Positions 1 through 64,000 of a stretch of DNA of 64,000 nt are shown here, piece after piece (positions within the stretch are counted from its first letter, which is position 1; every line of letters begins with the position of its first letter). The position numbers and the translations under genes are program-made. This DNA comes from Nemertoderma westbladi. Lineage: Eukaryota > Animalia > Xenacoelomorpha. Where the stretch lies: NCBI GenBank assembly GCA_032718475.1, contig JAUCBJ010008517.1, positions 55,181 to 119,180 on the forward strand, written 5' to 3'. The notes under the pieces were generated by a model. The model did no database searches. It saw only the letters and a list, made by a program, of their open reading frames with translations, and had not been told where the DNA came from.

Positions 1-3000
1 CTCTGTAAAACAAACAATATCGTAGAACGACAGAGAAACAACTCCTCTGTAAAACAAACAATATCGTAGAACGAAAGAAAAACAACTCCTCTGTAAAACA
101 AACAATATCGTAGAACGACAGAGAAACAACTCCTCTGTAAAACAAACAATATCGTAGAACGAAAGAGAAACAACTCCTCTGTAAAACAAACAATATCGTA
201 GAACGACAGAGAAACAACTCCTCCGTAAAACAAACAATATTGTAGAACGAAAGAAAAACAACTCCTCTGTAAAACAAACAATATCGTAGAACGAAAGAGA
301 AACAACTCCTCTGTAAAACAAACAATATCGTAGAATGAAAAAGAAACAACTCCTCTGTAAAACAAACAATATCGTAGAACGACAGAGAAACAACTCCTCT
401 GTAAAACAAACAATATTGTAGAACGAAAGAAAAACAACTCCTCTGTAAAACAAACAATATCGTAGAACGAAAGAGAAACAACTCCTCTGTAAAACAAACA
501 ATATCGTAGAACGAAAGAGAAACAACTCCTCTGTAAAACAAACAATATCGTAGAACGAAAGAGAAACAACTCCTCTGTAAAACAAACAATATTATAGAAA
601 GAAAGAGAAACAACTCCTCTGTAAAACAAACAATATCGTAGAACGAAAGAGAAACAACTCCTCTGTAAAACAAACAATATAGTAGAACGAAAGATAAACA
701 ACTCCTCTGTAAAACAAACAATATCGTTGAACGAAAGAGAAACAACTCCTCTGTAAAACAAACAATATCGTAGAACGAAAGAGAAACAACTCCTCTGTAA
801 AACAAACAATATCGTAGAACGAAAGAGAAACAACTCCTCTGTAAAACAAACAATATCGTAGAACGAAAGGGAAACAACTCCTCTGTAAAACAAACAATAT
901 AGTAGAACGAAAGAGAAACAACTCCTCTGTAAAACAAACAATATCGTAGAACGAAAGAGAAACAACTCCTCTGTAAAAGAAACAATATCGTTGAATGAAA
1001 GAGAAACAACTCCTCTGTAAAACAAACAATATCGTAGAACGAAAGAGAAACAACTCCTCTGTAAAACAAACAATATCGTAGAACGAAAGAGAAACAACTC
1101 CTCTGTAAAACAAACAATATAGTAGAACGAAAGAGAAACAACTCCTCTGTAAAACAAACAATATCGTAGAACGAAAGAGAAACAACTCCTCTGTAAAACA
1201 AACAATATAGTAGAACGAAAGAGAAACAACTCCTCTGTAAAACAAACAATATCGTTGTACGAAAGAGAAACAACTCCTCTGTAAAACAAACAATATCGTA
1301 GAACGAAAGAGAAATAACTCCTCTGTAACACAAACAATATCGTAGAACGAAAGAGAAACAACTCCTCTGTAAAACAAACAATATAGTAGAACGAAAGAGA
1401 AACAACTCCTCTGTAAAACAAACAATATGGTAGAACGAAAGAGAAACAACTCCTCTGTAAAACAAACAATATAGTAGAACAAAAGAGAAACAACTCCTCT
1501 GTAAAACAAACAATATCGTAGAACGAAAGAAAAACAACTCCTCTGTAAAACAAACAATATCGTAGAACGAAAGAGAAACAACTCCTCTGTAAAACAAACA
1601 ATATCGTAGAACGAAAGAGAAACAACTCCTCTGTAAAACAAACAATATCGTAGAACGAAAGAGAAACAACTCCTCTGTAAAACAAACAATATCGTAGAAC
1701 GAAAGAGAAACAACTCCTCTGTAAAACAAACAATATAGTAGAACGAAAGAGAAACAACTCCTCTGTAAAACAAACAATATCGTAGAACGAAAGAGAAACA
1801 ACTCCTCTGTAAAACAAACAATATAGTAGAACGAAAGAGAAACAACTCCTCTGTAAAACAAACAATATCGTAGAACGAAAGAGAAACAACTCCTCTGTAA
1901 AACAAACAATATCGTAGTATGAAAGAGAAACAACTCCTCTGTAAAACAAACAATATCGTAGAACGAAAGAAAAACAACTCCTCTGTAAAACAAACAATAT
2001 CGTAGAACGAAAGAAAAACAACTCCTCTGTAAAACAAACAATATCGTAGAACGACAGAGAAACAACTCTGTAAAACAAACAATATCGTAGAACGACAGAG
2101 AAACAACTCCTCTGTAAAACAAACAATATCGTAGAACGAAAGAAAAACAACTCCTATGTAAAACAAACAATATCGTAGAACGACAGAGAAACAACTCCTC
2201 TGTAAAACAAACAATATCGTAGAACGAAAGAGAAACAACTCCTCTGTAAAACAAACAATATCGTAGAACGAAAGAGAAACAACTCCTCTGTAAAACAAAC
2301 AATATAGTAGAACGAAAGAAAAACAACTCCTATGTAAAACAAACAATATCGTAGAACGACAGAGAAACAACTCCTCTGTAAAACAAACAATATCGTAGAA
2401 CAAAAGAGAAACAACTCTGTAAAACAAACAATATCGTAGAACGACAGAGAAACAACTCCTCTGTAAAACAAACAATATCGTAGAACGAAAGAAAAACAAC
2501 TCCTATGTAAAACAAACAATATCGTAGAACGAAAGAGAAACAACTCCTCTGTAAAACAAACAATATCGTAGAACGAAAGAAAAACAACTCCTATGTAAAT
2601 GTAAAACAAACAATATCGTAGAACGAAAGAAAAACAACTCCTATGTAAAACAAACAACATAGTAGAACGAAAGAAAAACAACTCCTATGTAAAACAAACA
2701 ATATCGTAGAACGACAGAGAAACAACTCCTCTGTAAAACAAACAATATCGTAGAACGAAAGAGAAACAACTCTGTAAAACAAACAATATCGTAGAACGAA
2801 AGAAAAACAACTCCTCTGTAAAACAAACAATATCGTAGAACGAAAGAGAAACAACTCCTCTGTAAAACAAACAATATCGTAGAACGAAAAAGAAACAACT
2901 CCTCTGTAAAACAAACAATATCGTAGAACGACAGAGAAACAACTCCTCTGTAAAACAAACAATATTGTAGAACGAAAGAAAAACAACTCCTCTGTAAAAC

Positions 3001-6000
3001 AAACAATATCGTAGAACGAAAGAGAAACAACTCCTCTGTAAAACAAACAATATCGTAGAACGAAAGAGAAACAACTCCTCTGTAAAACAAACAATATCGT
3101 AGAACGAAAGAGAAACAACTCCTCTGTAAAACAAACAATATTATAGAAAGAAAGAGAAACAACTCCTCTGTAAAACAAACAATATCGTAGAACGAAAGAG
3201 AAACAACTCCTCTGTAAAACAAACAATATAGTAGAACGAAAGAGAAACAACTCCTCTGTAAAACAAACAATATCGTTGAACGAAAGAGAAACAACTCCTC
3301 TGTAAAACAAACAATATCGTAGAACAAAAGAGAAACAACTCCTCTGTAAAACAAACAATATCGTAGAACGAAAGAAAAACAACTCCTCTGTAAAACAAAC
3401 AATATCGTAGAACGAAAGAGAAACAACTCCTCTGTAAAACAAACAATATAGTAGAACGAAAGAGAAACAACTCCTCTGTAAAACAAACAATATCGTAGAA
3501 CGAAAGAGAAACAACTCCTCTGTAAAACAAACAATATCATTGAATGAAAGAGAAACAACTCCTCTGTAAAACAAACAATATCGTAGAACGAAAGAGAAAC
3601 AACTCCTCTGTAAAACAAACAATATCGTAGAACGAAAGAGAAACAACTCCTCTGTAAAACAAACAATATAGTAGAACGAAAGAGAAACAACTCCTCTGTA
3701 AAACAAACAATATCGTAGAACGAAAGAGAAACAACTCCTCTGTAAAACAAACAATATAGTAGAACGAAAGAGAAACAACTCCTCTGTAAAACAAACAATA
3801 TCGTTGAACGAAAGAGAAACAACTCCTCTGTAAAACAAACAATATCGTAGAACGAAAGAGAAATAACTCCTCTGTAACACAAACAATATCGTAGAACGAA
3901 AGAGAAACAACTCCTCTGTAAAACAAACAATATAGTAGAACGAAAGAGAAACAACTCCTCTGTAAAACAAACAATATGGTAGAACGAAAGAGAAACAACT
4001 CCTCTGTAAAACAAACAATATAGTAGAACAAAAGAGAAACAACTCCTCTGTAAAACAAACAATATCGTAGAACGAAAGAAAAACAACTCCTCTGTAAAAC
4101 AAACAATATCGTAGAACGAAAGAGAAACAACTCCTCTGTAAAACAAACAATATCGTAGAACGAAAGAGAAACAACTCCTCTGTAAAACAAACAATATCGT
4201 AGAACGAAAGAGAAACAACTCCTCTGTAAAACAAACAATATCGTAGAACGAAAGAGAAACAACTCCTCTGTAAAACAAACAATATAGTAGAACGAAAGAG
4301 AAACAACTCCTCTGTAAAACAAACAATATCGTAGAACGAAAGAGAAACAACTCCTCTGTAAAACAAACAATATAGTAGAACGAAAGAGAAACAACTCCTC
4401 TGTAAAACAAACAATATCGTAGAACGAAAGAGAAACAACTCCTCTGTAAAACAAACAATATCGTAGTATGAAAGAGAAACAACTCCTCTGTAAAACAAAC
4501 AATATCGTAGAACGAAAGAAAAACAACTCCTCTGTAAAACAAACAATATCGTAGAACGAAAGAAAAACAACTCCTCTGTAAAACAAACAATATCGTAGAA
4601 CGACAGAGAAACAACTCTGTAAAACAAACAATATCGTAGAACGACAGAGAAACAACTCCTCTGTAAAACAAACAATATCGTAGAACGAAAGAAAAACAAC
4701 TCCTATGTAAAACAAACAATATCGTAGAACGACAGAGAAACAACTCCTCTGTAAAACAAACAATATCGTAGAACGAAAGAGAAACAACTCCTCTGTAAAA
4801 CAAACAATATCGTAGAACGAAAGAGAAACAACTCCTCTGTAAAACAAACAATATAGTAGAACGAAAGAAAAACAACTCCTATGTAAAACAAACAATATCG
4901 TAGAACGACAGAGAAACAACTCCTCTGTAAAACAAACAATATCGTAGAACGAAAGAGAAACAACTCTGTAAAACAAACAATATCGTAGAACGACAGAGAA
5001 ACAACTCCTCTGTAAAACAAACAATATCGTAGAACGAAAGAAAAACAACTCCTATGTAAAACAAACAATATCGTAGAACGAAAGAGAAACAACTCCTCTG
5101 TAAAACAAACAATATCGTAGAACGAAAGAAAAACAACTCCTATGTAAAACAAACAATATCGTAGAACGAAAGAAAAACAACTCCTATGTAAAACAAACAA
5201 CATAGTAGAACGAAAGAAAAACAACTCCTATGTAAAACAAACAATATCGTAGAACGACAGAGAAACAACTCCTCTGTAAAACAAACAATATCGTAGAACG
5301 AAAGAGAAACAACTCTGTAAAACAAACAATATCGTAGAACGAAAGAAAAACAACTCCTATGTAAAACAAACAATATCGTAGAACGACAGAGAAACAACTC
5401 CTCTGTAAAACAAACAATATCGTAGAACGAAAGAGAAACAACTCTGTAAAACAAACAATATCGTAGAACGACAGAGAAACAACTCCTCTGTAAAACAAAC
5501 AATATCGTAGAACAAAAGAAAAACAACTCCTATGTAAAACAAACAATATCGTAGAACGAAAGAGAAACAACTCCTCTGTAAAACAAACAATATCGTAGAA
5601 CGAAAGAAAAACAACTCCTATGTAAAACAAACAATATAGTAGAACGAAAGAAAAACAACTCCTATGTAAAACAAACAATATCGTAGAACGACAGAGAAAC
5701 AACTCCTCTGTAAAACAAACAATATCGTAGAACGAAAGAGAAACAACTCTGTAAAACAAACAATATCGTAGAACGACAGAGAAACAACTCCTCTGTAAAA
5801 CAAACAATATCGTAGAACGAAAGAAAAACAACTCCTATGTAAAACAAACAATATCGTAGAACGACAGAGAAACAACTCCTCTGTAAAACAAACAATATCG
5901 TAGAACGAAAGAAAAACAACTCCTATGTAAAACAAACAATATCGTAGAACGACAGAGAAACAACTCCTCTGTAAAACAAACAATATCGTAGAACGAAAGA

Positions 6001-9000
6001 AAAACAACTCCTCTGTAAAACAAACAATATCGTAGAACGACAGAGAAACAACTCCTCTGTAAAACAAACAATATCGTAGAATGAAAGAGAAACAACTCCT
6101 CTGTAAAACAAACAATATCGTAGAACGACAGAGAAACAACTCCTCTGTAAAACAAACAATATCGTAGAATGACAGAGAAACAACTCCTCTGTAAAACAAA
6201 CAATATCGTAGAACGACAGAAAAACAACTCCTCTGTAAAACAAACAATATCGTAGAACGACAGAGAAACAACTCCTCTGTAAAACAAACAATATCGTAGA
6301 ACGAAAGAAAAACAACTCCTCTGTAAAACAAACAATATCGTAGAACGACAGAGAAACAACTCCTCTGTAAAACAAACAATATCGTAGAACGAAAGAGAAA
6401 CAACTCCTCTGTAAAACAAACAATATCGTAGAACGACAGAGAAACAACTCCTCCGTAAAACAAACAATATTGTAGAACGAAAGAAAAACAACTCCTCTGT
6501 AAAACAAACAATATCGTAGAACGAAAGAGAAACAACTCCTCTGTAAAACAAACAATATCGTAGAACGAAAAAGAAACAACTCCTCTGTAAAACAAACAAT
6601 ATCGTAGAACGACAGAGAAACAACTCCTCTGTAAAACAAACAATATTGTAGAATGAAAGAAAAACAACTCCTCTGTAAAACAAACAATATCGTAGAACGA
6701 AAGAGAAACAACTCCTCTGTAAAACAAACAATATCGTAGAACGAAAGAGAAACAACTCCTCTGTAAAACAAACAATATCGTAGAACGAAAGAGAAACAAC
6801 TCCTCTGTAAAACAAACAATATTATAGAAAGAAAGAGAAACAACTCCTCTGTAAAACAAACAATATCGTAGAACGAAAGAGAAACAACTCCTCTGTAAAA
6901 CAAACAATATAGTAGAACGAAAGAGAAACAACTCCTCTGTAAAACAAACAATATCGTTGAACGAAAGAGAAACAACTCCTCTGTAAAACAAACAATATCG
7001 TAGAACGAAAGAGAAACAACTCCTCTGTAAAACAAACAATATCGTAGAACGAAAGAGAAACAACTCCTCTGTAAAACAAACAATATCGTAGAACGAAAGA
7101 GAAACAACTCCTCTGTAAAACAAACAATATAGTAGAACGAAAGAGAAACAACTCCTCTGTAAAACAAACAATATCGTAGAACGAAAGAGAAACAACTCCT
7201 CTGTAAAACAAACAATATCGTTGAACGAAAGAGAAACAACTCCTCTGTAAAACAAACAATATCGTAGAACGAAAGAGAAACAACTCCTCTGTAAAACAAA
7301 CAATATCGTAGAACGAAAGAGAAACAACTCCTCTGTAAAACAAACAATATAGTAGAATGAAAGAGAAACAACTCCTCTGTAAAACAAACAATATCGTAGA
7401 ACGAAAGAGAAACAACTCCTCTGTAAAACAAACAATATAGTAGAACAAAAGAGAAACAACTCCTCTGTAAAACAAACAATATCGTTGAACGAAAGAGAAA
7501 CAACTCCTCTGTAAAACAAACAATATCGTAGAACGAAAGAGAAACAACTCCTCTGTAAAACAAACAATATCGTAGAACGAAAGAGAAACAACTCCTCTGT
7601 AAAACAAACAATATAGTAGAACGAAAGAGAAACAACTCCTCTGTAAAACAAACAATATGGTAGAACGAAAGAGAAACAACTCCTCTGTAAAACAAACAAT
7701 ATCGTAGAACGAAAGAGAAACAACTCCTCTGTAAAACAAACAATATCATTGAATGAAAGAGAAACAACTCCTCTGTAAAACAAACAATATCGTAGAACGA
7801 AAGAGAAACAACTCCTCTGTAAAACAAACAATATCGTAGAACGAAAGAGAAACAACTCCTCTGTAAAACAAACAATATAGTAGAACGAAAGAGAAACAAC
7901 TCCTCTGTAAAACAAACAATATCGTAGAACGAAAGAGAAACAACTCCTCTGTAAAACAAACAATATAGTAGAACGAAAGAGAAACAACTCCTCTGTAAAA
8001 CAAACAATATCGTTGAACGAAAGAGAAACAACTCCTCTGTAAAACAAACAATATCGTAGAACGAAAGAGAAATAACTCCTCTGTAACACAAACAATATCG
8101 TAGAACGAAAGAGAAACAACTCCTCTGTAAAACAAACAATATAGTAGAACGAAAGAGAAACAACTCCTCTGTAAAACAAACAATATGGTAGAACGAAAGA
8201 GAAACAACTCCTCTGTAAAACAAACAATATAGTAGAACAAAAGAGAAACAACTCCTCTGTAAAACAAACAATATCGTAGAACGAAAGAAAAACAACTCCT
8301 CTGTAAAACAAACAATATCGTAGAACGAAAGAGAAACAACTCCTCTGTAAAACAAACAATATCGTAGAACGAAAGAGAAACAACTCCTCTGTAAAACAAA
8401 CAATATCGTAGAACGAAAGAGAAACAACTCCTCTGTAAAACAAACAATATCGTAGAACGAAAGAGAAACAACTCCTCTGTAAAACAAACAATATAGTAGA
8501 ACGAAAGAGAAACAACTCCTCTGTAAAACAAACAATATCGTAGAACGAAAGAGAAACAACTCCTCTGTAAAACAAACAATATAGTAGAACGAAAGAGAAA
8601 CAACTCCTCTGTAAAACAAACAATATCGTAGAACGAAAGAGAAACAACTCCTCTGTAAAACAAACAATATCGTAGTATGAAAGAGAAACAACTCCTCTGT
8701 AAAACAAACAATATCGTAGAACGAAAGAAAAACAACTCCTCTGTAAAACAAACAATATCGTAGAACGAAAGAAAAACAACTCCTCTGTAAAACAAACAAT
8801 ATCGTAGAACGACAGAGAAACAACTCTGTAAAACAAACAATATCGTAGAACGACAGAGAAACAACTCCTCTGTAAAACAAACAATATCGTAGAACGAAAG
8901 AAAAACAACTCCTATGTAAAACAAACAATATCGTAGAACGACAGAGAAACAACTCCTCTGTAAAACAAACAATATCGTAGAACGAAAGAGAAACAACTCC

Positions 9001-12000
9001 TCTGTAAAACAAACAATATCGTAGAACGAAAGAGAAACAACTCCTCTGTAAAACAAACAATATAGTAGAACGAAAGAAAAACAACTCCTATGTAAAACAA
9101 ACAATATCGTAGAACGACAGAGAAACAACTCCTCTGTAAAACAAACAATATCGTAGAACGAAAGAGAAACAACTCTGTAAAACAAACAATATCGTAGAAC
9201 GACAGAGAAACAACTCCTCTGTAAAACAAACAATATCGTAGAACGAAAGAAAAACAACTCCTATGTAAAACAAACAATATCGTAGAACGAAAGAGAAACA
9301 ACTCCTCTGTAAAACAAACAATATCGTAGAACGAAAGAAAAACAACTCCTATGTAAAACAAACAATATCGTAGAACGAAAGAAAAACAACTCCTATGTAA
9401 AACAAACAACATAGTAGAACGAAAGAAAAACAACTCCTATGTAAAACAAACAATATCGTAGAACGACAGAGAAACAACTCCTCTGTAAAACAAACAATAT
9501 CGTAGAACGAAAGAGAAACAACTCTGTAAAACAAACAATATCGTAGAACGAAAGAAAAACAACTCCTATGTAAAACAAACAATATCGTAGAACGACAGAG
9601 AAACAACTCCTCTGTAAAACAAACAATATCGTAGAACGAAAGAGAAACAACTCTGTAAAACAAACAATATCGTAGAACGACAGAGAAACAACTCCTCTGT
9701 AAAACAAACAATATCGTAGAACAAAAGAAAAACAACTCCTATGTAAAACAAACAATATCGTAGAACGAAAGAGAAACAACTCCTCTGTAAAACAAACAAT
9801 ATCGTAGAACGAAAGAAAAACAACTCCTATGTAAAACAAACAATATAGTAGAACGAAAGAAAAACAACTCCTATGTAAAACAAACAATATCGTAGAACGA
9901 CAGAGAAACAACTCCTCTGTAAAACAAACAATATCGTAGAACGAAAGAGAAACAACTCTGTAAAACAAACAATATCGTAGAACGACAGAGAAACAACTCC
10001 TCTGTAAAACAAACAATATCGTAGAACGAAAGAAAAACAACTCCTATGTAAAACAAACAATATCGTAGAACGACAGAGAAACAACTCCTCTGTAAAACAA
10101 ACAATATCGTAGAACGAAAGAAAAACAACTCCTATGTAAAACAAACAATATCGTAGAACGACAGAGAAACAACTCCTCTGTAAAACAAACAATATCGTAG
10201 AACGAAAGAAAAACAACTCCTCTGTAAAACAAACAATATCGTAGAACGACAGAGAAACAACTCCTCTGTAAAACAAACAATATCGTAGAATGAAAGAGAA
10301 ACAACTCCTCTGTAAAACAAACAATATCGTAGAACGACAGAGAAACAACTCCTCTGTAAAACAAACAATATCGTAGAATGACAGAGAAACAACTCCTCTG
10401 TAAAACAAACAATATCGTAGAACGACAGAAAAACAACTCCTCTGTAAAACAAACAATATCGTAGAACGACAGAGAAACAACTCCTCTGTAAAACAAACAA
10501 TATCGTAGAACGAAAGAAAAACAACTCCTCTGTAAAACAAACAATATCGTAGAACGACAGAGAAACAACTCCTCTGTAAAACAAACAATATCGTAGAACG
10601 AAAGAGAAACAACTCCTCTGTAAAACAAACAATATCGTAGAACGACAGAGAAACAACTCCTCCGTAAAACAAACAATATTGTAGAACGAAAGAAAAACAA
10701 CTCCTCTGTAAAACAAACAATATCGTAGAACGAAAGAGAAACAACTCCTCTGTAAAACAAACAATATCGTAGAACGAAAAAGAAACAACTCCTCTGTAAA
10801 ACAAACAATATCGTAGAACGACAGAGAAACAACTCCTCTGTAAAACAAACAATATTGTAGAATGAAAGAAAAACAACTCCTCTGTAAAACAAACAATATC
10901 GTAGAACGAAAGAGAAACAACTCCTCTGTAAAACAAACAATATCGTAGAACGAAAGAGAAACAACTCCTCTGTAAAACAAACAATATCGTAGAACGAAAG
11001 AGAAACAACTCCTCTGTAAAACAAACAATATTATAGAAAGAAAGAGAAACAACTCCTCTGTAAAACAAACAATATCGTAGAACGAAAGAGAAACAACTCC
11101 TCTGTAAAACAAACAATATAGTAGAACGAAAGAGAAACAACTCCTCTGTAAAACAAACAATATCGTTGAACGAAAGAGAAACAACTCCTCTGTAAAACAA
11201 ACAATATCGTAGAACGAAAGAGAAACAACTCCTCTGTAAAACAAACAATATCGTAGAACGAAAGAGAAACAACTCCTCTGTAAAACAAACAATATCGTAG
11301 AACGAAAGAGAAACAACTCCTCTGTAAAACAAACAATATAGTAGAACGAAAGAGAAACAACTCCTCTGTAAAACAAACAATATCGTAGAACGAAAGAGAA
11401 ACAACTCCTCTGTAAAACAAACAATATCGTTGAACGAAAGAGAAACAACTCCTCTGTAAAACAAACAATATCGTAGAACGAAAGAGAAACAACTCCTCTG
11501 TAAAACAAACAATATCGTAGAACGAAAGAGAAACAACTCCTCTGTAAAACAAACAATATAGTAGAATGAAAGAGAAACAACTCCTCTGTAAAACAAACAA
11601 TATCGTAGAACGAAAGAGAAACAACTCCTCTGTAAAACAAACAATATAGTAGAACAAAAGAGAAACAACTCCTCTGTAAAACAAACAATATCGTTGAACG
11701 AAAGAGAAACAACTCCTCTGTAAAACAAACAATATCGTAGAACGAAAGAGAAACAACTCCTCTGTAAAACAAACAATATCGTAGAACGAAAGAGAAACAA
11801 CTCCTCTGTAAAACAAACAATATAGTAGAACGAAAGAGAAACAACTCCTCTGTAAAACAAACAATATGGTAGAACGAAAGAGAAACAACTCCTCTGTAAA
11901 ACAAACAATATAGTAGAACAAAAGAGAAACAACTCCTCTGTAAAACAAACAATATCGTAGAACGAAAGAAAAACAACTCCTCTGTAAAACAAACAATATC

Positions 12001-12845: not shown

Positions 12846-12894
12846 GGAAAGAAACTACTCATATAACTCCTAAGTATTAGACTAACCGACTAAC

Positions 12895-13146
12895 CTGTAA
12901 GCTAATTCCTCCTCCAAAGTGCCCCAATGGGAGATGTCCTCACAATATCGTATCAAGTCCTTATAGGCTGATATAAATGCTGAGTAATTGGGCCCATCCC
13001 ACAATAGACCTCCCACCAATCGGGAACCTAGTTCAGTGAACCATGAGCGGTTGCTTGGAGACGAGAATACAATACGGAATGCAGCACGGAGACAGTACAC
13101 CTTGGCTAGGAAATCGATATCAGAAAGACAACCAACCAAACTGGTT
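12895..13146 (-). CDS. MIGA: MIGA coding exon 7 (start of C-terminal lipid-binding domain)
   Basis: Acceptor ttgtattctag|A and donor TACAG|gttagt. Translates RTSLVGCLSDIDFLAKVYCLRAAF...WGTLEEELAYR. Confidence 0.92.
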
Positions 13147-21546: not shown

Positions 21547-21701
21547 GACTGTATTTGAATAGATTCACTCCTAATAAAAATAATTTAAAAGGTAAGGCCA
21601 ACTTAAATGCCTGTGAAACATATAAATTAAATGAATTGGAGTTGAGCTGTTAAATGCAACTGTAATTCTTGATGTAATATAAAGGTTTTGTTCAGAAATT
21701 A

Positions 21702-30033: not shown

Positions 30034-30067
30034 ATGATGCATCCTGCATTAAACAGAAATGTATCAG
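30034..30067 (+). CDS. Synaptotagmin first coding exon (MMHPALNRNVS)
   Basis: First in-frame ATG after TAG at 29995. Strong donor TCAG|gtaagt, and phase 1 fits exon 2. Confidence 0.7.
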
Positions 30068-51000: not shown

Positions 51001-54000
51001 CCTCTCATTTATTGTTTTGGTTGCTTTCAACCCACCTATCTCCTCTGTAACATGCTTTGTAAATAACCTGCCTACAAGTACAGTAGGCATGTAGGCCTAG
51101 GTCCCGGTGTAGGCCAGTAGGCGTTGTCACTTGCTACAGTATCCCAATCAACGTTTGAACGCCGATCAACCGATCAGATAACGATCGGAAATAGAGCGCT
51201 CGATCGGAAATACCGAAATAGTGCCTCAGTACCGACGAATCCACTCCTTTATTCGCTCACAATGCACTGCAAGGGCGCTTTACCGTCGACCGTAACTAAT
51301 TCGATTTTGCAATGGGTCAATTAATTGTTCTGATGAATGATTAAAAATATTATTACGCTATTCTGGTTTCTGGTAGCCCGTTTATTATTACATTTTGTAG
51401 AGTATAAACACCATTTAGTCCACAATGATAATTATGTTATATAGCATAATATTTAACAAACATTTATAAATTATTAATTTATTTATATATAAAACCATTT
51501 ACTAATACACAAACATAATGGGAAAAAAACAGTTTATAATTACAATATTGCATGTAATTTTGGATTATTTTTCGTCTACTGTACACTACTGTATTGTATA
51601 TGCTACATATGCGGCATTGGTGTGTTCTACTGTACCACTATAGCTAAAAATGACAATAACTAAATACATGATTGAATAGGTTTCGTGGTCTTTAGGGTGA
51701 ACATCTTAAGGTTAATGAATAGCGCTATTATGTACAGTAGTATTGGGGTAGTTAGGATTATTAATTAGTACTGTATTATATTGTTAATTAATACCTCCGA
51801 AAGCCATGATTGTGAAACTTTATACTTTTGTTAATAAATTTATTATTGCTGACTATTTAATATTTTATTTGATTATTGTGTATAAATCCGCGGTTCAACC
51901 ACGAAATATTTCACGACAATGTATCGCAACGTTTTTGACAATAGACGTGTTAATGGATCAAGTGTCCCTGAAACCTGAGTTGCATACAGTTGTAATCTGA
52001 CTATCTCAATTAGAATTCATCCCCGTCAAACATAAACTCGACATCTTTTATCTGGTGAAATAGAACAAAGATTATTACATTTAACCTACCGCTGCTGCTG
52101 CAATATGAATGATGATACACAATCTTCCTTAGCAAGCTTCCTGTATATCTTTCGAGATGACCTGTCATCTGTCAAAAAAACATTAAGTGTGTGATTGAAC
52201 AACGTTAGGTTGACATGCAGCGAGGTATGCCCTAAGATCAGCAGCTCATTCGATCTGCTGAACTGAAGAATTTTGTCGGTTAATTACTGAGAGTATTCAT
52301 GAATGTGTAATGTATTGAATTAACCTTTCTGAATGGTGCAGATTCTGCCTCAGGTAATAATGTCAAGTTCACTTGCAAGAGTTCTCGGTATGAAATAATT
52401 TCCAATTCTTAAGCAGCTAGAGCAATTGCTAACTCCGAAAAGTAGCCTACTGTAGCGAAACACAAATAATGAACATTGAATTTATTTACACCCCTCCCGC
52501 CAACACAACTCCTTTCAGGAACTTCAGTCGTGCTACACGCTCCAGCTGTTAATCCATTTCCTTTTTTATCTACTTACAATGTTATCTGAAATCGTAGGGC
52601 TATATCAGTCAGTTGTAATGTAAAAACTGTGCATGCATGACGTGCATGGGTGTCATTGGGAGTAGAAAGCGGGTACGATGGGATTGCCAGAGGAACTCCA
52701 ACACACTCAAGGTGAGAAATCCACCTCCCGAGAGATCATTCCGATTTGACTGGCACTCTGTATATTATATATTTTATCATAAAACCTATCAACCATGATA
52801 TTAATTTTATTTAAAATTTATTAAAATTAACTGATTAGACGTGTTATTACCCGTCAGCTATGCTATGACTACTGTATATGGGTTCATCCAAGCACTTAGT
52901 CTGGGTTAATTGTTAATACATTGTACATGTACACACCATGCCCTGGAATATTTAGTGTTGTAATTCGGTGAAAAATAGATAAGAGTAGTTGTAGATCATG
53001 TTGCATCCATGGACAGCTCTAGAGGAACTCTTGGTCGCATCCATAATGATGATCGGCCCATGTTAAGAATACCCATGTTATATTTCACTTTGTAGTTACC
53101 CCCATGTGAAAAGTACCAGGTTTTCACAAAAAAAACAGGTCACAGAAGGGCTGAATCTATCCAAAACAATAAACTAATTAGTATATGTACAGGTTATAAT
53201 CAGAAATAAGCGCTATAAAACACTTAATAAAGATAAATTTAAAAATTAAAAAATCTTCACATATAAAATTCCAATAAAAAGTCAACCGAAAAGTGAAATC
53301 CTGGTATTCTTCACATGGGCGTGATGATCAGTAATAATATAATAATTAATTCGTTATTATCCCTATCCCAGATCCCTATGTACTCGTTACTATGAGTTGC
53401 AATGGAGAGGTGGTAGAGCAGCGCCATACATCGGTACAAACACAAACTCTCAACCCAATCTACAACGAAACGTTAACCTTCAAACTACCAGACGAAGATA
53501 TTGGACTCGATAATGTTTCGTTTACTATTACGGTTAGTTTCCATGTGATTCGCATTTCATTCTATTTTCATAATCGCAGTTAGGCCTAGTATCATGTTTT
53601 CTTTTACCAAATTAATGGACTCATGGTGCTTATGGATGTTGACTCTGAGACGCTAAATATTTTTAAAAATATGTAACATCTAAAACACGTTCGCAAACAA
53701 ATTACGTTAGGGAACAAACAAAATATGATAAAACAATAACTGGTCAATAGGTAAGATACCAGACTCTCTTCTGTTATGTTTCACTTTGCAGTTTACCACC
53801 ATGTTAAGAATACCAGGTTTTCACTAAAAACCCAGGTTACAGAAGGACTGACTTTAACCAAAACAATAAAATAATTATTAGTATTTTTCGGTCGACTTTT
53901 TATTTGAATTTTATATATGAAGATTTTTTATTTTTTTTTAATTTATCTTTATTAAGTGTTTTATAGCGCTTGTTTCTGTCTTATATAACCTGTACAGATA

Positions 54001-54437
54001 CTAAATTGTTTATTGTTTTGGTTAGATTCAGTCCGTCTGTAACCTGTGTTTTTGGTGAAAACCTGGTATTCTTTACAAGGGGGTAACTTCAAAGTGAAAT
54101 ATAACGATAGAAAGTCTGTTCATATGGGCCACACAAGGGTAAACTCTCATCCCTGATTTTGGTAACTGCATCGGGTGAAATGTAACGAGAACATTATAGA
54201 CCAGTGGCCTAGGATGTTTGTGTATAAAGCGCATGGATTTCGGTTTGATATTATTTTGTTGTGTTTATTTAGGCTATGGACTGCGACTGCGAAACACACA
54301 ACGATATCATTGGCCAGCTGACCATAGGCGGTAATGTGAGTTTACCATTGTCTGCGGCCAATCACTGGCGAGCATTCAGGAAGACGCCAAGAAAGCAGGT
54401 CGCTGATTGGCACACTCTGGTCCCCCCAGAAAAATGA
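30034..54437 (+). CDS. Synaptotagmin (Syt4/11-like), complete, 463 aa; exons 30034-30067, 32234-32436, 33026-33123, 37447-38056, 41999-42119, 53372-53532, 54273-54437
   Basis: Exon lengths sum to 1392 nt with GT-AG junctions in matching phase. Architecture is short luminal N-terminus, TM helix, linker, C2A, C2B and terminal WHTL motif. KTRV, ALHF, GELLLSL and PRKQVADWH recall Syt4/11. Confidence 0.92.
30833..30955 (+). repeat. 10-bp minisatellite (CACATTGTTC)n, ~12 copies
   Basis: Direct reading. Confidence 0.95.
31081..31443 (+). repeat. 24-bp minisatellite GTGTGTGGGTGGCTAGTTCGGCCA x15
   Basis: Direct reading; nearly perfect copies. Confidence 0.97.
32234..32436 (+). CDS. Synaptotagmin exon 2 (TM helix)
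   Basis: Acceptor ttttatag|TT and donor GAG|gtaatg. Translates VAVIVGSCLAIVCVIVFSLVLFIVF followed by RWYKLRRR. Confidence 0.9.
33026..33123 (+). CDS. Synaptotagmin exon 3 (linker)
   Basis: Acceptor tttatcgcag|GTA and donor ACAG|gttggt. Bridges phase 0 to phase 2 as required. Confidence 0.82.
34847..36988. repeat. 63-bp minisatellite, ~34 copies, in synaptotagmin intron 3
   Basis: Unit AAGGAATGCCTGTTCACCACCATGGGTGATCTTCCACAGTAAACCCTTCCACTCTGTTTCCTA, with two interspersed subtypes. Confidence 0.96.
36989..37155 (-). mobile_element. Degenerate tRNA-derived SINE head adjoining the 63-bp array
   Basis: Minus strand shows A-box-like TGGTCTGTGG and B-box-like GATTCGATCC, then CCAACCCAGGCTTTCATC...GGTCGATAAA resembling SINE central domains. 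Confidence 0.4.
37447..38056 (+). CDS. Synaptotagmin exon 4 (linker plus C2A)
   Basis: Acceptor ttttttacag|A and donor CAG|gtttga. Contains LDPFIKVQLMP...KTRV...NPVYNETFQF...LDHDR...IGE. Confidence 0.95.
40981..41040 (-). ncRNA. Degenerate type I hammerhead ribozyme motif (same family as 21.7-22.0 kb)
   Basis: Minus strand reads gcactacaa-CTGATGA-ggcctaacaatcc-GAAAC-GCGC-GTA-tagcgc. Confidence 0.55.
41496..42005 (+). repeat. 34-bp tandem array (15 units) of the exon-5 splice acceptor
   Basis: Unit ttaatgtttgtttgtttattttag|TATCCGGata. The last unit is the real acceptor (AG 41997-41998). Confidence 0.96.
41999..42119 (+). CDS. Synaptotagmin exon 5 (C2B start)
   Basis: Translates YPAICGELLLSLTHKSDTNSLIVGVLKARNLSCRNITGLN. 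Donor AACG|gtgagt. Not present in the ORF track. Confidence 0.93.
43253..44501 (-). mobile_element. Internally deleted hAT DNA transposon with BED-finger transposase remnant
   Basis: 18-bp TIR TAGGGCTGGCAATCCCGG and perfect 8-bp TSD ATACTAAT (43245-43252, 44502-44509). ORF 44136-43687 has VW..F..C..C..STKGLHTHLKSVH and DGLPFS. A shifted frame continues to TITMDEWTS. Confidence 0.93.
44573..44811 (+). mobile_element. Partial copy of palindromic MITE family
   Basis: Matches 53083-53321 (inverted), 53880-54118 and part of 33424-33540. Confidence 0.65.
46240..48555 (+). repeat. 40-bp G-rich minisatellite, ~57 copies, in synaptotagmin intron 5
   Basis: Unit GTCCGGGGGCTACTGT(C/G)TGGGGGTTAGTATCCGTGGGATT, with 41- and 43-bp variants. 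Confidence 0.96.
49186..49871. mobile_element. PIF/Harbinger (Tourist-like) MITE
   Basis: 22-bp TIR GGGGCCGTCCAAGTATGACGTC and 3-bp TSD TTA on both sides. Confidence 0.88.
50325..50600 (-). mobile_element. Old degraded fragment of the same RTE LINE family
   Basis: ATGCACTGGCTGTTCCTCACGGCGAAAGCCATGTCCTGCAAAGCGG and CCCATGCCTTGCCCTTACGTAT match 23930-24290. Confidence 0.7.
53083..53321 (-). mobile_element. Partial copy of palindromic MITE family
   Basis: Reverse complement of 44573-44811. Confidence 0.65.
53372..53532 (+). CDS. Synaptotagmin exon 6 (C2B)
   Basis: Acceptor ccctatcccag|AT and donor ACG|gttagt. Translates DPYVLVTM...LNPIYNETLTFKLP...FTIT. Confidence 0.93.
53760..54118. mobile_element. 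MITE with ~110-bp imperfect terminal inverted repeats
   Basis: CAGACT...TTTCACTTTG...GAATACCAGGTTTTCAC...AACCAAAACAATAAA is mirrored at 54010-54118. Confidence 0.75.
54273..54437 (+). CDS. Synaptotagmin last exon
   Basis: Acceptor gtttatttag|GCT. Translates AMDCDCETHNDIIGQLTIG...HWRAFRKTPRKQVADWHTLVPPEK then TGA. Confidence 0.94.
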   Translation, partial: AMDCDCETHNDIIGQLTIGGNVSLPLSAANHWRAFRKTPRKQVADWHTLVPPEK

Positions 54438-54720
54438 ATTCCAACAAGGAGTATCATTATTATAGACCAACGTTCCCTTAGGAATGGATAGAATTACATG
54501 CACTCCCAAATTATTATGAGTGTGCTGTGCATTGTGTAATGTATATGTTTACATGTTGTATCAATTTGCCGCCACTCTTGGTTGAATTCTCACAATGTTT
54601 CGGCGAAATAATATAGCTACTTTTTTCTGTTAAACTGAAACTTTATCCATGGACACCGAAATGTTTACTAACTATCCTGGATGTTTAAAGACCTGTGGAA
54701 GAAGAGTTTCCGAATCGAAT

Positions 54721-54813
54721 GCGATTGTAAATAAATGTTGTTACGAAACTTGCGTTTGTAAATAAATGTTGTTACGAAACTTGCGATTGTAAATAATTGT
54801 TGTTACGAAACTT
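54721..54813 (+). repeat. 31-bp triple repeat containing candidate poly(A) signals
   Basis: GCGATTGTAAATAAATGTTGTTACGAAACTT x3. AATAAA at 54730 and 54761; third copy has AATAAT. Confidence 0.8.
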
Positions 54814-56727: not shown

Positions 56728-59700
56728 TGGGAACTTATTTCAGAAACTATTGGGAACTTCTTTCAGAAACTATTGGGAACTTCTTTCAGAAACTATTGGG
56801 AACTTCTTTCAGAAACTATTGGGAACTTCTTTCAGAAACTATTGGGAACTTCTTTCAGAAACTATTGGGAAATTCATTCAGAAACTATTGGGAACTTCTT
56901 TCAGAAACTATTGGGAACTTCATTCAGAAACTATTGGGAACTTCTTTCAGAAACTATTGGGAACTTCTTACAGAAACTATTGGGAACTTCTTTCAGAAAC
57001 TATTGGGAACTTCATTCAGAATCTATTGGGAACTTCTTTCAGAAACTATTGGGAACTTCTTTCAGAAACTATTGGGAACTTCTTTCAGAATCTATTGGGA
57101 ACTTCTTTCAGAAACTATTGGGAACTTCTTTCAGAAACTATTGGGAACTTCTTACAGAAACTATTGGGAACTTCATTCAGAAACTATTGGGAACTTCTTT
57201 CAGAAACTATTGGGAACTTCATTCAGAAACTATTGGGAACTTCTTTCAGAAACTATTGGGAACTTCATTCAGAAACTATTGGGAACTTCTTTCAGAAACT
57301 ATTGGGAACTTCTTACAGAAACTATTGGGAACTTCATTCAGAAACTATTGGGAACTTCTTTCAGAATCTATTGGGAACTTCTTTCAGAATCTATTGGGAA
57401 CTTCTTTCAGAAACTATTGGGAACTTCTTTCAGAAACTATTGGGAACTTCTTTCAGAATCTATTGGGAACTTCTTTCAGAAACTATTGGGAACTTCTTTC
57501 AGAAACTATTGGGAACTTCTTACAGAAACTATTGGGAACTTCATTCAGAAACTATTGGGAACTTCTTTCAGAAACTATTGGGAACTTCATTCAGAAACTA
57601 TTGGGAACTTCTTTCAGAAACTATTGGGAACTTCATTCAGAAACTATTGGGAACTTCTTTCAGAAACTATTGGGAACTTCTTACTGAAACTATTGGGAAC
57701 TTCATTCAGAAACTATTGGGAACTTCTTTCAGAAACTATTGGGAACTTCATTCAGAAACTATTGGGAACTTCTTTCAGAAACTATTGGGAACTTCTTACA
57801 GAAACTATTGGGAACTTCTTTCAGAAACTATTGGGAACTTCTTTCAGAAACTATTGGGAACTTCTTTCAGAAACTATTGGGAACTTCTTTCAGAAACTAT
57901 TGGGAACTTCTTACAGAAACTATTGGGAACTTCTTTCAGAAACTATTGGGAACTTCTTTCAGAAACTATTGGGAACTTCTTACAGAAACTATTGGGAACT
58001 TCATTCAGAAACTATTGGGAACTTCTTTCAGAAACTATTGGGAACTTCTTTCAGAAACTATTGGGAACTTCTTTCAGAAACTATTGGGAACTTCTTTCAG
58101 AAACTATTGGGAACTTCTTTCAGAAACTATTGGGAACTTCTTTCAGAAACTATTGGGAACTTCTTTCAGAAACTATTGGGAACTTCTTACTGAAACTATT
58201 GGGAACTTCATTCAGAAACTATTGGGAACTTCATTCAGAAACTATTGGGAACTTCATTCAGAAACTATTGGGAACTTCTTTCAGAAACTATTGGGAACTT
58301 CTTACAGAAACTATTGGGAACTTCTTTCAGAAACTATTGGGAACTTCTTTCAGAAACTATTGGGAACTTCTTACAGAAACTATTGGGAACTTCATTCAGA
58401 AACTATTGGGAACTTCTTTCAGAAACTATTGGGAACTTCTTTCAGAAACTATTGGGAACTTCTTACAGAATCTATTGGGAACTTCTTTCAGAAACTATTG
58501 GGAACTTCTTACAGAATCTATTGGGAACTTCTTTCAGAAACTATTGGGAACTTCTTTCAGAAACTATTGGGAACTTCTTACAGAAACTATTGGGAACTTC
58601 TTTCAGAAACTATTGGGAACTTCTTTCAGAAACTATTGGGAACTTCTTACAGAATCTATTGGGAACTTCTTTCAGAAACTATTGGGAACTTCTTTCAGAA
58701 ACTATTGGGAACTTCTTACAGAAACTATTGGGAACTTCTTTCAGAAACTATTGGGAACTTCTTACAGACACTATTGGGAACTTCTTTCAGAAACTATTGG
58801 GAACTTCATTCAGAAACTATTGGGAACTTCTTTCAGAAACTATTGGGAACTTCATTCAGAAACTATTGGGAACTTCTTTCAGAAACTATTGGGAACTTCT
58901 TTCAGAAACTATTGGGAACTTCTTACAGACACTATTGGGAACTTCTTTCAGAATCTATTGGGAACTTCATTCAGAAACTATTGGGAACTTCTTTCAGAAA
59001 CTATTGGGAACTTCATTCAGAAACTATTGGGAACTTCTTTCAGAATCTATTGGGAACTTCATTCAGAAACTATTGGGAACTTCTTTCAGAAACTATTGGG
59101 AACTTCTTTCAGAAACTATTGGGAACTTCATTCAGAAACTATTGGGAACTTCTTTCAGAAACTATTGGGAACTTCTTTCAGAAACTATTGGGAACTTCTT
59201 TCAGAAACTATTGGGAACTTCATTCAGAAACTATTGGGAACTTCTTTCAGAAACTATTGGGAACTTCATTCAGAAACTATTGGGAACTTCTTTCAGAAAC
59301 TATTGGGAACTTCTTTCAGAAACTATTGGGAACTTCTTTCAGAAACTATTGGGAACTTCATTCAGAAACTATTGGGAACTTCTTTCAAAAACTATTGGGA
59401 ACTTCTTTCAGAAACTATTGGGAACTTCTTTCAGAAACTATTGGGAACTTCATTCAGAAACTATTGGGAACTTCTTTCAGAAACTATTGGGAACTTCATT
59501 CAGAAACTATTGGGAACTTCTTTCAGAAACTATTGGGAACTTCTTTCAGAATCTATTGGGAACTTCTTTCAGAAACTATTGGGAACTTCTTTCAGAAACT
59601 ATTGGGAACTTCATTCAGAAACTATTGGGAACTTCTTTCAGAAACTATTGGGAACTTCTTTCAGAAACTATTGGGAACTTCTTACAGACACTATTGGGAA

Positions 59701-62700
59701 CTTCTTTCAGAATCTATTGGGAACTTCATTCAGAAACTATTGGGAACTTCTTTCAGAAACTATTGGGAACTTCATTCAGAAACTATTGGGAACTTCTTTC
59801 AGAATCTATTGGGAACTTCATTCAGAAACTATTGGGAACTTCTTTCAGAAACTATTGGGAACTTCTTTCAGAAACTATTGGGAACTTCATTCAGAAACTA
59901 TTGGGAACTTCTTTCAGAAACTATTGGGAACTTCTTTCAGAAACTATTGGGAACTTCTTTCAGAAACTATTGGGAACTTCATTCAGAAACTATTGGGAAC
60001 TTCTTTCAGAAACTATTGGGAACTTCTTACAGAAACTATTGGGAACTTCTTTCAGAAACTATTGGGAACTTCTTACAGAAACTATTGGGAACTTCTTTCA
60101 GAAACTATTGGGAACTTCTTACAGAATCTATTGGGAACTTCTTACAGACACTATTGGGAACTTCTTACAGAATCTATTGGGAACTTCATTCAGAAACTAT
60201 TGGGAACTTCTTTCAGAAACTATTGGGAACTTCTTTCAGAAACTATTGGGAACTTCTTACAGAATCTATTGGGAACTTCTTACAGACACTATTGGGAACT
60301 TCTTTCAGAAACTATTGGGAACTTCTTTCAGAAACTATTGGGAACTTCTTTCAGAAACTATTGGGAACTTCATTCAGAAACTATTGGGAACTTCTTTCAG
60401 AAACTATTGGGAACATCTTACAGAATCTATTGGGAACTTCTTTCAGAAACTATTGGGAACTTCTTACAGAATCTATTGGGAACTTCTTTCAGAAACTATT
60501 GGGAACTTCTTTCAGAAACTATTGGGAACTTCTTACAGAAACTATTGGGAACTTCTTACAGAATCTATTGGGAACTTCTTTCAGAAACTATTGGGAACTT
60601 CTTTCAGAAACTATTGGGAACCTCTTTCAGAAACTATTGGGAACTTCTTACAGAATCTATTGGGAACTTCTTTCAGAAACTATTGGGAACTTCTTTCAGA
60701 AACTATTGGGAACTTCTTTCAGAAACTATTGGGAACTTCTTACAGACACTATTGGGAACTTCTTTCAGAAACTATTGGGAACTTCATTCAGAAACTATTG
60801 GGAACTTCATTCAGAAACTATTGGGAACTTCATTCAGAAACTATTGGGAACTTCATTCAGAAACTATTGGGAACTTCATTCAGAAACTATTGGGAACTTC
60901 TTACAGACACTATTGGGAACTTCTTTCAGAAACTATTGGGAACTTCTTTCAGAAACTATTGGGAACTTCTTTCAGAAACTATTGGGAACTTCATTCAGAA
61001 ACTATTGGGAACTTCATTCAGAAACTATTGGGAACTTCATTCAGAAACTATTGGGAACTTCTTTCAGAAACTATTGGGAACTTCTTACAGACACTATTGG
61101 GAACTTCTTTCAGAAACTATTGGGAACTTCATTCAGAAACTATTGGGAACTTCATTCAGAAACTATTGGGAACTTCATTCAGAAACTATTGGGAACTTCT
61201 TTCAGAAACTATTGGGAACTTCTTACAGACACTATTGGGAACTTCTTTCAGAAACTATTGGGAACTTCTTTCAGAAACTATTGGGAACTTCTTTCAGAAA
61301 CTAATGGGAACTTCTTTCAGAATCTATTGGTAACTTCTTTCAGAAACTATTGGGAACTTCTTTCAGAATCTATTGGGAACTTCTTTCAGAAACTATTGGG
61401 AACTTCTTTCAGAAACTATTGGGAACTTCTTACAGAATCTATTGGGAACTTCTTTCAGAAACTATTGGGAACTTCTTTCAGAAACTATTGGGAACTTCTT
61501 TCAGAAACTATTGGGAACTTCTTTCAGAACCTATTGGGAACTTCTTTCAGAAACTATTGGGAACTTCTTTCAGAAACTATTGGGAACTTCTTTCAGAAAC
61601 TATTGGGAACTTCATTCAGAAACTATTGGGAACTTCTTACAGAATCTATTGGGAACTTCTTACAGAATCTATTGGGAACTTCTTTCAGAAACTTTTGGGA
61701 ACTTCTTTCAGAAACTATTGGGAACTTCTTTCAGAAACTATTGGGAACTTCATTCAGAAACTATTGGGAACTTCTTTCAGAAACTATTGGGAACTTCTTA
61801 CAGAATCTATTGGGAACTTCTTTCAGAAACTAGTGGGAACTTCTTTCAGAATCTATTGGGAACTTCTTTCAGAATCTATTGGGAACTTCTTTCAGAAACT
61901 AGTGGGAACTTCTTTCAGAATCTATTGGGAACTTCTTTCAGAAACTATTGGGAACTTCTTTCAGAAACTATTGGGAACTTCTTTCAGAAACTATTGGGAA
62001 CTTCTTTCAGAAACTATTGGGAACTTCTTTCAGAAACTATTGGGAACTTCTTTCAGAAACTATTGGGAACTTCATTCAGAAACTATTGGGAACTTCTTTC
62101 AGAAACTATTGGGAACTTCTTTCAGAAACTATTGGGAACTTCTTTCAGAAACTATTGGGAACTTCATTCAGAAACTATTGGGAACTTCTTTCAGAAACTA
62201 TTGGGAACTTCATTCAGAAACTATTGGGAACTTCTTTCAGAAACTATTGGGAACTTCTTTCAGAAACTATTGGGAACTTCTTTCAGAAACTATTGGGAAC
62301 TTCATTCAGAAACTATTGGGAACTTCTTTCAAAAACTATTGGGAACTTCTTTCAGAAACTATTGGGAACTTCTTTCAGAAACTATTGGGAACTTCATTCA
62401 GAAACTATTGGGAACTTCTTTCAGAAACTATTGGGAACTTCATTCAGAAACTATTGGGAACTTCTTTCAGAAACTATTGGGAACTTCTTTCAGAATCTAT
62501 TGGGAACTTCTTTCAGAAACTATTGGGAACTTCTTTCAGAAACTATTGGGAACTTCATTCAGAAACTATTGGGAACTTCTTTCAGAAACTATTGGGAACT
62601 TCTTTCAGAAACTATTGGGAACTTCTTACAGACACTATTGGGAACTTCTTTCAGAATCTATTGGGAACTTCATTCAGAAACTATTGGGAACTTCTTTCAG

Positions 62701-64000
62701 AAACTATTGGGAACTTCATTCAGAAACTATTGGGAACTTCTTTCAGAATCTATTGGGAACTTCATTCAGAAACTATTGGGAACTTCTTTCAGAAACTATT
62801 GGGAACTTCTTTCAGAAACTATTGGGAACTTCATTCAGAAACTATTGGGAACTTCTTTCAGAAACTATTGGGAACTTCTTTCAGAAACTATTGGGAACTT
62901 CTTTCAGAAACTATTGGGAACTTCATTCAGAAACTATTGGGAACTTCTTTCAGAAACTATTGGGAACTTCTTACAGAAACTATTGGGAACTTCTTTCAGA
63001 AACTATTGGGAACTTCTTACAGAAACTATTGGGAACTTCTTTCAGAAACTATTGGGAACTTCTTACAGAATCTATTGGGAACTTCTTACAGACACTATTG
63101 GGAACTTCTTACAGAATCTATTGGGAACTTCATTCAGAAACTATTGGGAACTTCTTTCAGAAACTATTGGGAACTTCTTTCAGAAACTATTGGGAACTTC
63201 TTACAGAATCTATTGGGAACTTCTTACAGACACTATTGGGAACTTCTTTCAGAAACTATTGGGAACTTCTTTCAGAAACTATTGGGAACTTCTTTCAGAA
63301 ACTATTGGGAACTTCATTCAGAAACTATTGGGAACTTCTTTCAGAAACTATTGGGAACATCTTACAGAATCTATTGGGAACTTCTTTCAGAAACTATTGG
63401 GAACTTCTTACAGAATCTATTGGGAACTTCTTTCAGAAACTATTGGGAACTTCTTTCAGAAACTATTGGGAACTTCTTACAGAAACTATTGGGAACTTCT
63501 TACAGAATCTATTGGGAACTTCTTTCAGAAACTATTGGGAACTTCTTTCAGAAACTATTGGGAACCTCTTTCAGAAACTATTGGGAACTTCTTACAGAAT
63601 CTATTGGGAACTTCTTTCAGAAACTATTGGGAACTTCTTTCAGAAACTATTGGGAACTTCTTTCAGAAACTATTGGGAACTTCTTACAGACACTATTGGG
63701 AACTTCTTTCAGAAACTATTGGGAACTTCATTCAGAAACTATTGGGAACTTCATTCAGAAACTATTGGGAACTTCATTCAGAAACTATTGGGAACTTCAT
63801 TCAGAAACTATTGGGAACTTCATTCAGAAACTATTGGGAACTTCTTACAGACACTATTGGGAACTTCTTTCAGAAACTATTGGGAACTTCTTTCAGAAAC
63901 TATTGGGAACTTCTTTCAGAAACTATTGGGAACTTCATTCAGAAACTATTGGGAACTTCATTCAGAAACTATTGGGAACTTCATTCAGAAACTATTGGGA
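56728..64000 (+). repeat. 23-bp tandem satellite (>=315 copies, open at window end)
   Basis: Unit TGGGAACTTCTTTCAGAAACTAT, with variants TTCATTCAG, CTTACAG, AATCTAT and ACACTAT. Confidence 0.97.

What the first reader, a model, noticed from the sequence alone, without database searches (positions are those of the whole stretch)
1..64000. Candidate general system: tandem arrays born at 3' splice sites
Two well-supported arrays (44-bp MIGA, 34-bp synaptotagmin) and two candidates (36-bp, 23-bp) of unrelated sequence share one design: pyrimidine tract, YAG, then the first exon bases. Where the host gene is known they lie on its sense strand at the intron 3' end. Recurrence in two adjacent unrelated genes suggests a genome-wide mechanism. 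Options are slippage or repair focused at acceptors, or tolerance because only the acceptor closest to the downstream donor is exon-defined. This could be a route to giant introns, new satellites and new coding repeats. I do not know of a description at this scale, but I could not search the literature.
Basis: inference. Interest (0 to 1): 0.88.

Follow-up and report, generated by a model that had tools for sequence, protein, structure and literature searches.

The report
Giant splice-acceptor "mirage" repeats
In two neighbouring animal genes, the end of an intron plus the start of the next exon has been copied head to tail (15 times in one; in the other, likely the same design, about 290 times); this is a known and likely harmless repeat type ("mirage"), here unusually large, and one window cannot show a genome-wide mechanism.

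Summary
Partly confirmed; the class is already known. Spliced contigs of run X4 fix both gene models. The 34-bp array (15 copies) spans an acceptor of the synaptotagmin-like gene, and the contig length fits use of the last AG exactly (1031 of 1031 nt). The 44-bp array (at least 292 units, 259 with AG intact) carries the first 12 codons of the next mitoguardin exon in the right phase; its exon-side end lies outside the window. The 36-bp array is 1.2 kb from any acceptor X4 uses, at the edge of a predicted cassette exon: unresolved. The 23-bp array starts 2.3 kb past the synaptotagmin stop codon, with no host gene shown. Five more arrays touch no splice site; 0 of 14 donors are copied. So 2 of 9 (at most 3), against 0.11 expected, in a window picked for this pattern. 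Such arrays are published as amphioxus "mirages" and human donor-side minisatellites, and this scan noted them before in other genomes (unchecked notes). Only the size looks new. Likely mechanism: slippage seeded in T-rich tracts, growth by unequal exchange, tolerance by exon definition. The genome-wide test could not be run: no genome is held.

The parts
1..12860 (-). 44-bp array in mitoguardin intron 8; unit = about 34 nt of the next exon's start + about 10 nt of intron end with CAG; at least 292 units, 259 ending in AG; continues beyond the window
12895..13146 (-). Mitoguardin exon 8, phase-2 donor at 12894; first unit AG lies 77 nt into the intron
12895..23306 (-). Mitoguardin exons 1-8 (23090-23306, 22375-22564, 21401-21570, 20559-20713, 16247-16429, 15688-15872, 14604-14839, 12895-13146); none of their 7 acceptors is duplicated
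   Evidence: 7 CT..AC joints in one X4 contig; bounds and phases; copy scan
16872..17849 (-). Predicted phase-1/phase-1 cassette or alternative exon in mitoguardin intron 4 (start 17849 or 17600); skipped by the X4 contig
   Evidence: open frame when joined; 243 open codons, chance about 8e-8, donor weak; contig joins across it
17614..17870 (-). 36-bp array (12 codons, frame-keeping) at the 5' edge of the predicted exon; acceptor array or coding repeat, unresolved
29821..54754 (+). Synaptotagmin-like gene, 463 aa: exons 29821-30067, 32234-32436, 33026-33123, 37447-38056, 41999-42119, 53372-53532, 54273-about 54754; stop at 54435
41496..42010 (+). 34-bp array, 15 copies of 24 nt intron end + 10 nt exon start; last AG (41997-41998) is the acceptor used
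56728..64000 (.). 23-bp array beyond the synaptotagmin-like stop codon; no host gene shown; not counted as an acceptor array
30834..30955 (.). 10-bp array, mid-intron control
31080..31443 (.). 24-bp array, mid-intron control
34845..36990 (.). 63-bp array, mid-intron control, ends 457 nt before the acceptor
46222..48546 (.). 40-bp array, mid-intron control, over 4 kb from any splice site
54720..54813 (.). 31-bp triple repeat after the stop codon (likely 3' UTR); the X4 contig ends in it

Best explanation
The 34-bp array, and likely the 44-bp array, are tandem copies of an intron end plus the start of the next exon (acceptor-type 'mirage' minisatellites), likely born by ordinary slippage in a repeat-prone genome and likely tolerated because the copy next to the exon is the one spliced. 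Step 1, birth (inferred): a 34-44 nt duplication across the junction, helped by short T-rich matches between the tract and the exon start. Step 2, growth (shown as structure, mechanism inferred): block duplications of hundreds to thousands of bases, as from unequal exchange. Any excess at acceptors would then come from low-complexity T-rich tracts seeding slippage, not from a dedicated splice-linked system.
For: 34-bp: X4 contig positions give 1676-644-1 = 1031 nt between exon 1 and exon 6, equal to my exons 2-5 with the last AG and no extra unit. The unit after each AG matches the exon start at 11 of 12 bases and the junction has a 2-nt TT match. All 5 upstream AGs tested give an early stop at 219-221 aa against 352. 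44-bp: the only hit among 177,635 PDB sequences at E up to 10 is mitoguardin 1 residues 107-121 (E 0.69, weak alone), starting where the exon-8 match ends (residue 107). In 34 homologues the unit fits residues 1-12 after the junction (R 29/34, V 29/34, F 27/34, D 29/34) and has 0/34 at residues 13-17. A profile of that stretch hits only the three minus frames of this array among 54 array frames. The X4 contig runs 1001 nt past exon 8, which a contig through a 44-bp array would be unlikely to do (inference). Nested exact repeats of 4252, 1143 and 459 nt. Arrays fill 40.6% of the window and most lie away from splice sites. Published mirages behave the same way (PMC3087553 section 16).
Against: The exon-side end of the 44-bp array and the true exon are outside the window, and the contig's letters after exon 8 were not shown. 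The 44-bp unit lacks a yTnAy branch motif (motif recalled) that 13 of 13 other acceptors have, so the last copy may differ or not abut the exon. The microhomology is only 2 nt in one array and unknown in the other. Two of 9 arrays against 0.11 expected (P about 0.005) is more than neutral survival alone predicts, though the window was selected. Contigs show only the major form, from one run. The perfect 4252-nt duplicate could be an assembly artefact; about 8.6 kb would remain.
Confidence: 0.72

Rival explanations
1. A genome-wide, splice-linked process (transcription- or splicing-coupled breakage and repair) seeds arrays specifically at acceptors.
For: 2 of 14 acceptors (3 of 15 with the predicted exon) against 0 of 14 donors; P(2 or more) about 0.005, P(3 or more) about 0.0002 under uniform placement. 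Unchecked scan notes report similar arrays in other animals and a dense case in a sea urchin; these are leads only.
Against: Window picked for the pattern; 12 of 13 in-window acceptors have no nearby copy; 5 of 9 arrays are away from sites; published cases include both 5' and 3' boundaries and many donor-side ones; counting both site types P rises to 0.019.
Confidence: 0.15
2. Pure chance plus survival: arrays arise anywhere at equal rate, and those at acceptors merely persist.
For: High array density (40.6%); a window with two hits is expected about once in 200 such windows under the null, and the scan covers very many windows.
Against: Both real units are built of T-rich GTTT-like runs, which suggests a sequence bias; the 36-bp array may be a third case. 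This differs from the best explanation only in whether any local bias exists.
Confidence: 0.3
3. The arrays are functional: decoy AGs tune expression or add coding repeats (three 44-bp units add 44 codons in frame; the 36-bp unit adds 12).
For: The 44-bp array reads open for 895 codons from the first AG and 259 of 292 units keep AG; the 36-bp array is frame-keeping inside a probable exon.
Against: AG loss (30 of 292 at the G) is within the range of other variable columns, so no sign of selection either way; X4 contigs hold no extra 34-bp unit and skip the 36-bp region.
Confidence: 0.07

Closest known systems
Amphioxus 'mirage' minisatellites (Adh3, globins BflGb6/BflGb9, troponin C, PGBD5); Ebner et al. 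2010 PMC3087553 (section 16 read whole, plus passages); PMC3902484 (passages)
   Same: Tandem copies spanning an intron-exon boundary; BflGb6 is the same acceptor type (intron 3' end + exon 5' part); most copies keep the splice signal; normal splicing; edge copies escape homogenisation; proposed as lineage-wide and as a route to new introns.
   Different: Copy number: 3-6 for BflGb6 and 2-7 for PGBD5, against 15 and at least 292 here (over 12.8 kb). Host is not Branchiostoma by protein identity (40% to its mitoguardin over this exon). Adh3 copy numbers are unknown to me: the original paper was not held.
Human boundary-spanning minisatellites: F7 IVS7, IFI 6-16, CBS intron 13, LMNB2, PDGF; PMC1557585 (passages)
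   Same: The unit spans a splice site; pseudo-sites are mostly silent; the site next to the exon is chosen.
   Different: Donor side rather than acceptor side for F7, 6-16, CBS and LMNB2; 5-25 copies; 6-16 and CBS use two pseudo-sites.
Internal tandem repeats at exon-intron boundaries in human segmental duplications; De Grassi and Ciccarelli 2009 PMC2812944 (passages)
   Same: A systematic TRF-based look at repeats at boundaries; new introns and coding repeats as outcomes.
   Different: Limited to recent human paralogues; in the passages seen, no test of acceptor versus donor enrichment.
Intron gain by tandem duplication of an AG|GT site (Rogers 1989; Zhuo 2007; Gao and Lynch 2009: seen only as citations in PMC3087553)
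   Same: Duplication across splice-like signals.
   Different: Here AG is followed by A or T, not GT; an existing intron was lengthened rather than created.

Membership tests
Mirage minisatellite (as described in PMC3087553) | Tandem unit spans a real exon-intron boundary | tested here: met
   34-bp. 44-bp: by homology and phase; its terminal copy is outside the window.
Mirage minisatellite (as described in PMC3087553) | Many but not all copies keep the splice signal | tested here: met
   44-bp: 259 of 292 end in AG. 34-bp: 14 of 15.
Mirage minisatellite (as described in PMC3087553) | Regular splicing is kept | tested here: met
   Major form only, one run: length sum 1031 of 1031 for the 34-bp array; contig runs 1001 nt past exon 8 for the 44-bp array.
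Mirage minisatellite (as described in PMC3087553) | Concerted evolution with edge copies left out | tested here: met
   All 14 upstream 34-bp copies share A where the exon has C at +8; the 5'-most 44-bp copy is decayed.
Mirage minisatellite (as described in PMC3087553) | Length differs between alleles or cells | not testable with these tools
   Only short-word contigs of other samples are available; they cannot size an array.
Mirage minisatellite (36-bp array) | Unit spans a splice site that is used | tested here: inconclusive
   Best in-frame AG (17600, score 5.7) lies just past the array and array AGs score 3.0; the X4 contig skips the exon.
Mirage minisatellite (23-bp array) | Unit spans a splice site of a host gene | tested here: not met
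   Not met for the two genes shown: 2455 nt from the nearest acceptor, past the stop codon. A gene beyond the window is not excluded.
Rogers-type intron gain | Unit holds AG|GT and makes a new intron | tested here: not met
   AG is followed by A (44-bp) or T then A (34-bp); both introns have a separate non-repeat GT donor.
   No genome held; 0 earlier notes on this genome.

The most novel reading that the evidence does not exclude
In this lineage acceptors are a true birthplace of satellites. T-rich tracts seed junction duplications at many times the intronic rate, and some grow to satellite size, turning a tiny intron (perhaps under 80 nt) into one of over 12.9 kb with more than 250 intact decoy acceptors that the spliceosome skips. 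That would be a general, non-transposon route to giant introns and a natural test bed for 3' splice-site choice.
Probability: 0.25. Interest if true: 0.7.

Novelty: new member of a known kind. Interest (0 to 1): 0.38.

Why it matters
The class is known, but the 44-bp array is more than ten times longer in copies than any published case I read (at most 25). The first decoy AG sits 77 nt from the donor, yet the transcript seems to skip it and over 250 more. That makes it a sharp natural test of exon definition against first-AG scanning. If a genome-wide count showed real enrichment at acceptors, it would turn scattered case reports into a rule about where satellites and long introns start. None of my 10 paper searches returned such a count.

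Tried and rejected
No whole genome held, so no genome-wide test. The look-up of sequencing runs: no RNA holder listed; X4 is labelled 'DNA?' and I treat it as spliced only from its joints. X6 laid nothing. Lack of X4 cover over single-copy intron parts is not used as evidence. X1 and X2 contigs stop 37-46 nt beyond 12862, inside the first 44-bp unit: a weak hint that both samples have a repeat there. Three word-index homologue searches found nothing (weak). The 23-bp unit translation had no PDB hit and only sub-threshold Pfam hits; one + frame was searched, which holds all three unit frames. The four donor-like sites before it are below background density (4 in 2.3 kb against 4.0 per kb). Pfam did not hit the 44-bp unit translation. 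An exon inside the 63-bp array is rejected: phases join without it and the length sum leaves no room. No array unit matched an exon edge elsewhere in the window. Selection against decoy AGs not seen. Papers not held: Canestro 2002, Zhuo 2007 (51, 59), Gao and Lynch 2009 (60). Paper searches with no genome-wide enrichment study in the listings; the library lacks most subscription journals. No supplements were opened.

Full report
Scope. No whole genome is held, so all tests are on the window, on public contigs laid on it, and on homologues. Tandem Repeats Finder gave 53 rows. I kept the 9 distinct arrays with period 10 or more and score 150 or more and dropped the weaker rows. They fill 40.6% of the window. 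The host is an animal; its mitoguardin exon is 40-46% identical to the five best hits, with named amphioxus, hydroid, hagfish, sea anemone and sea urchin proteins in the top six clusters. The lineage is not determined.

Gene models. Run X4 is labelled 'DNA?' but one of its contigs joins eight mitoguardin exons through 7 CT..AC joints on the minus strand, so I treat it as spliced transcript. A second contig (1922 nt) covers 29821-30067 and 53371-53533, with loose ends found at 42089 and 54274. The inner exon bounds of this synaptotagmin-like gene are my model, backed by an open 463-aa frame and an exact length sum. This gives 13 acceptors and 14 donors in the window.

34-bp array. Fifteen copies of 24 nt intron end plus 10 nt exon start; 14 keep the AG. 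The contig has 1031 nt between exon 1 and exon 6, and my exons 2-5 give 1031 with the last AG. The five upstream AGs tested all lead to early stops, so clean splicing and decay of wrong products cannot be told apart. All 14 upstream copies share one difference from the exon. The junction has a 2-nt TT match.

44-bp array. It starts 35 nt after the exon-8 donor, and the first AG is at intron +77. In the donor's phase the unit reads RGVVSLSFYDIV (145 of 292 units exactly). Its only PDB hit at E up to 10 is mitoguardin 1 residues 107-121 (E 0.69), directly after the exon-8 match. I took 40 of the 123 homologues, from those whose match reached the exon end; 34 extend 20 residues further. The unit fits them for 12 residues and then has 0 of 34 at five positions in a row. 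A profile of that stretch passes only the three minus frames of this array among 54 array frames. So about 34 nt are exon and about 10 nt intron. Of 292 units, 259 keep the AG. The intron is over 12,894 nt against 374-4129 for the other seven. Against this reading: the far end is unseen, the unit lacks the branch-like motif found at 13 of 13 other acceptors (motif recalled), and a perfect 4252-nt duplicate may be an artefact.

36-bp array. The X4 contig joins across it; it is 1185 nt from the nearest used acceptor. It lies at the 5' edge of a long open frame that fits as a phase-1 cassette exon. The best in-frame AG is just past the array (5.7; real sites 5.5-13.8), array AGs score 3.0, and the predicted donor is weak at 1.0. 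It may be a third acceptor array or a coding repeat.

23-bp array. The next exon after 53532 starts at 54273 and the gene stops at 54435, so this array lies outside the coding gene. Its unit is matched or beaten by 23.5% of random 23-mers, against 1.0% for the 44-bp and 3.5% for the 34-bp unit (small matrix from 12 sites). A host gene beyond the window is not excluded.

Is it more than chance? With arrays collapsed to one unit, 0.11 are expected on 14 acceptors; P(2 or more) is 0.005, or 0.019 with donors included; P(3 or more of 15) is 0.0002. Twelve of 13 in-window acceptors and 14 of 14 donors have no nearby copy. Because the window was flagged for this very pattern, these P values do not show a genome-wide bias.

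Mechanism. Shown: unit anatomy, last-AG use for the 34-bp array, nested block repeats, decayed edge copies. Inferred: birth by slippage at T-rich microhomology, growth by unequal exchange, tolerance by exon definition plus decay. I put 0.72 on this, 0.15 on a splice-linked seeding process and 0.07 on function; pure chance (0.3) overlaps with the best reading.

What is known. Ebner et al. 2010 (PMC3087553; section 16 whole, passages) describe 'mirages', including an acceptor-type case, normal splicing, edge exclusion, possible generality in cephalochordates and a model for intron gain. I found this paper, before looking at scan notes. PMC3902484 (passages) adds PGBD5 and troponin C. PMC1557585 (passages; lead from scan note e1-7142502) lists human cases of 5-25 copies. 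PMC2812944 (passages) surveys boundary repeats in human duplications. The original Adh3 paper was not held. Ten searches listed no genome-wide enrichment test; supplements were not opened. The scan's own unchecked notes report similar arrays in annelid, placozoan, sea urchin, shark and octopod windows; they are leads, not support.

Verdict. Two real members of a known kind, one of exceptional size; one open case; one unsupported. The general system is a fair, testable question but is not shown here. Interest 0.38.

Noticed in passing
window 16872-17849 (-): Single-copy open frame of 350 codons inside mitoguardin intron 4, bounded by phase-1 splice-like sites; joins in frame as a 978-nt (or 729-nt) cassette exon; no homologue found.
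   Followed up: partly
window 12894 (-): The intron splits the Arg codon here. Of 40 homologue rows, 11 leave the consensus after the junction, and 10 of those do so only after X-X-V, as if their intron lay about 4 nt further on (read by eye). Possible intron slide.
   Followed up: partly
window 3451-11911 and 59062-64000: Perfect internal duplicates of 4252 nt (44-bp array) and 1995 nt (23-bp array): very recent unequal exchange or assembly artefact.
   Followed up: partly
window 14840-14860 (-): The acceptor of mitoguardin exon 7 closely resembles the end of the 44-bp unit by eye; probably shared consensus plus chance.
   Followed up: no
window 23306 and 29821: Mitoguardin and the synaptotagmin-like gene lie head to head, about 6.5 kb apart.
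   Followed up: no
window 23850-24677 (-), 25905-26873 (+), 55617-55940 (+), 50129-50431 (-): Pieces of one very high-copy LINE-like element (RVT_1 and DUF6451 hits below cut-off for 25905-26873; very high contig depth there).
   Followed up: no
window 43513-44145 (-): Broken transposase-like frames (hAT/BED-like by eye, recalled; no matching Pfam hit) between inverted-repeat-like ends in synaptotagmin-like intron 5.
   Followed up: no
window about 30976-31054 (+): 79-nt stretch with acceptor-like and strong donor-like ends between the 10-bp and 24-bp arrays; no room for it in the X4 contig.
   Followed up: no
window 41496-41519 (+): The 34-bp unit begins exactly at a yTnAy branch-like motif (-21), so it carries a full 3' splice signal; the 44-bp unit has none.
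   Followed up: partly
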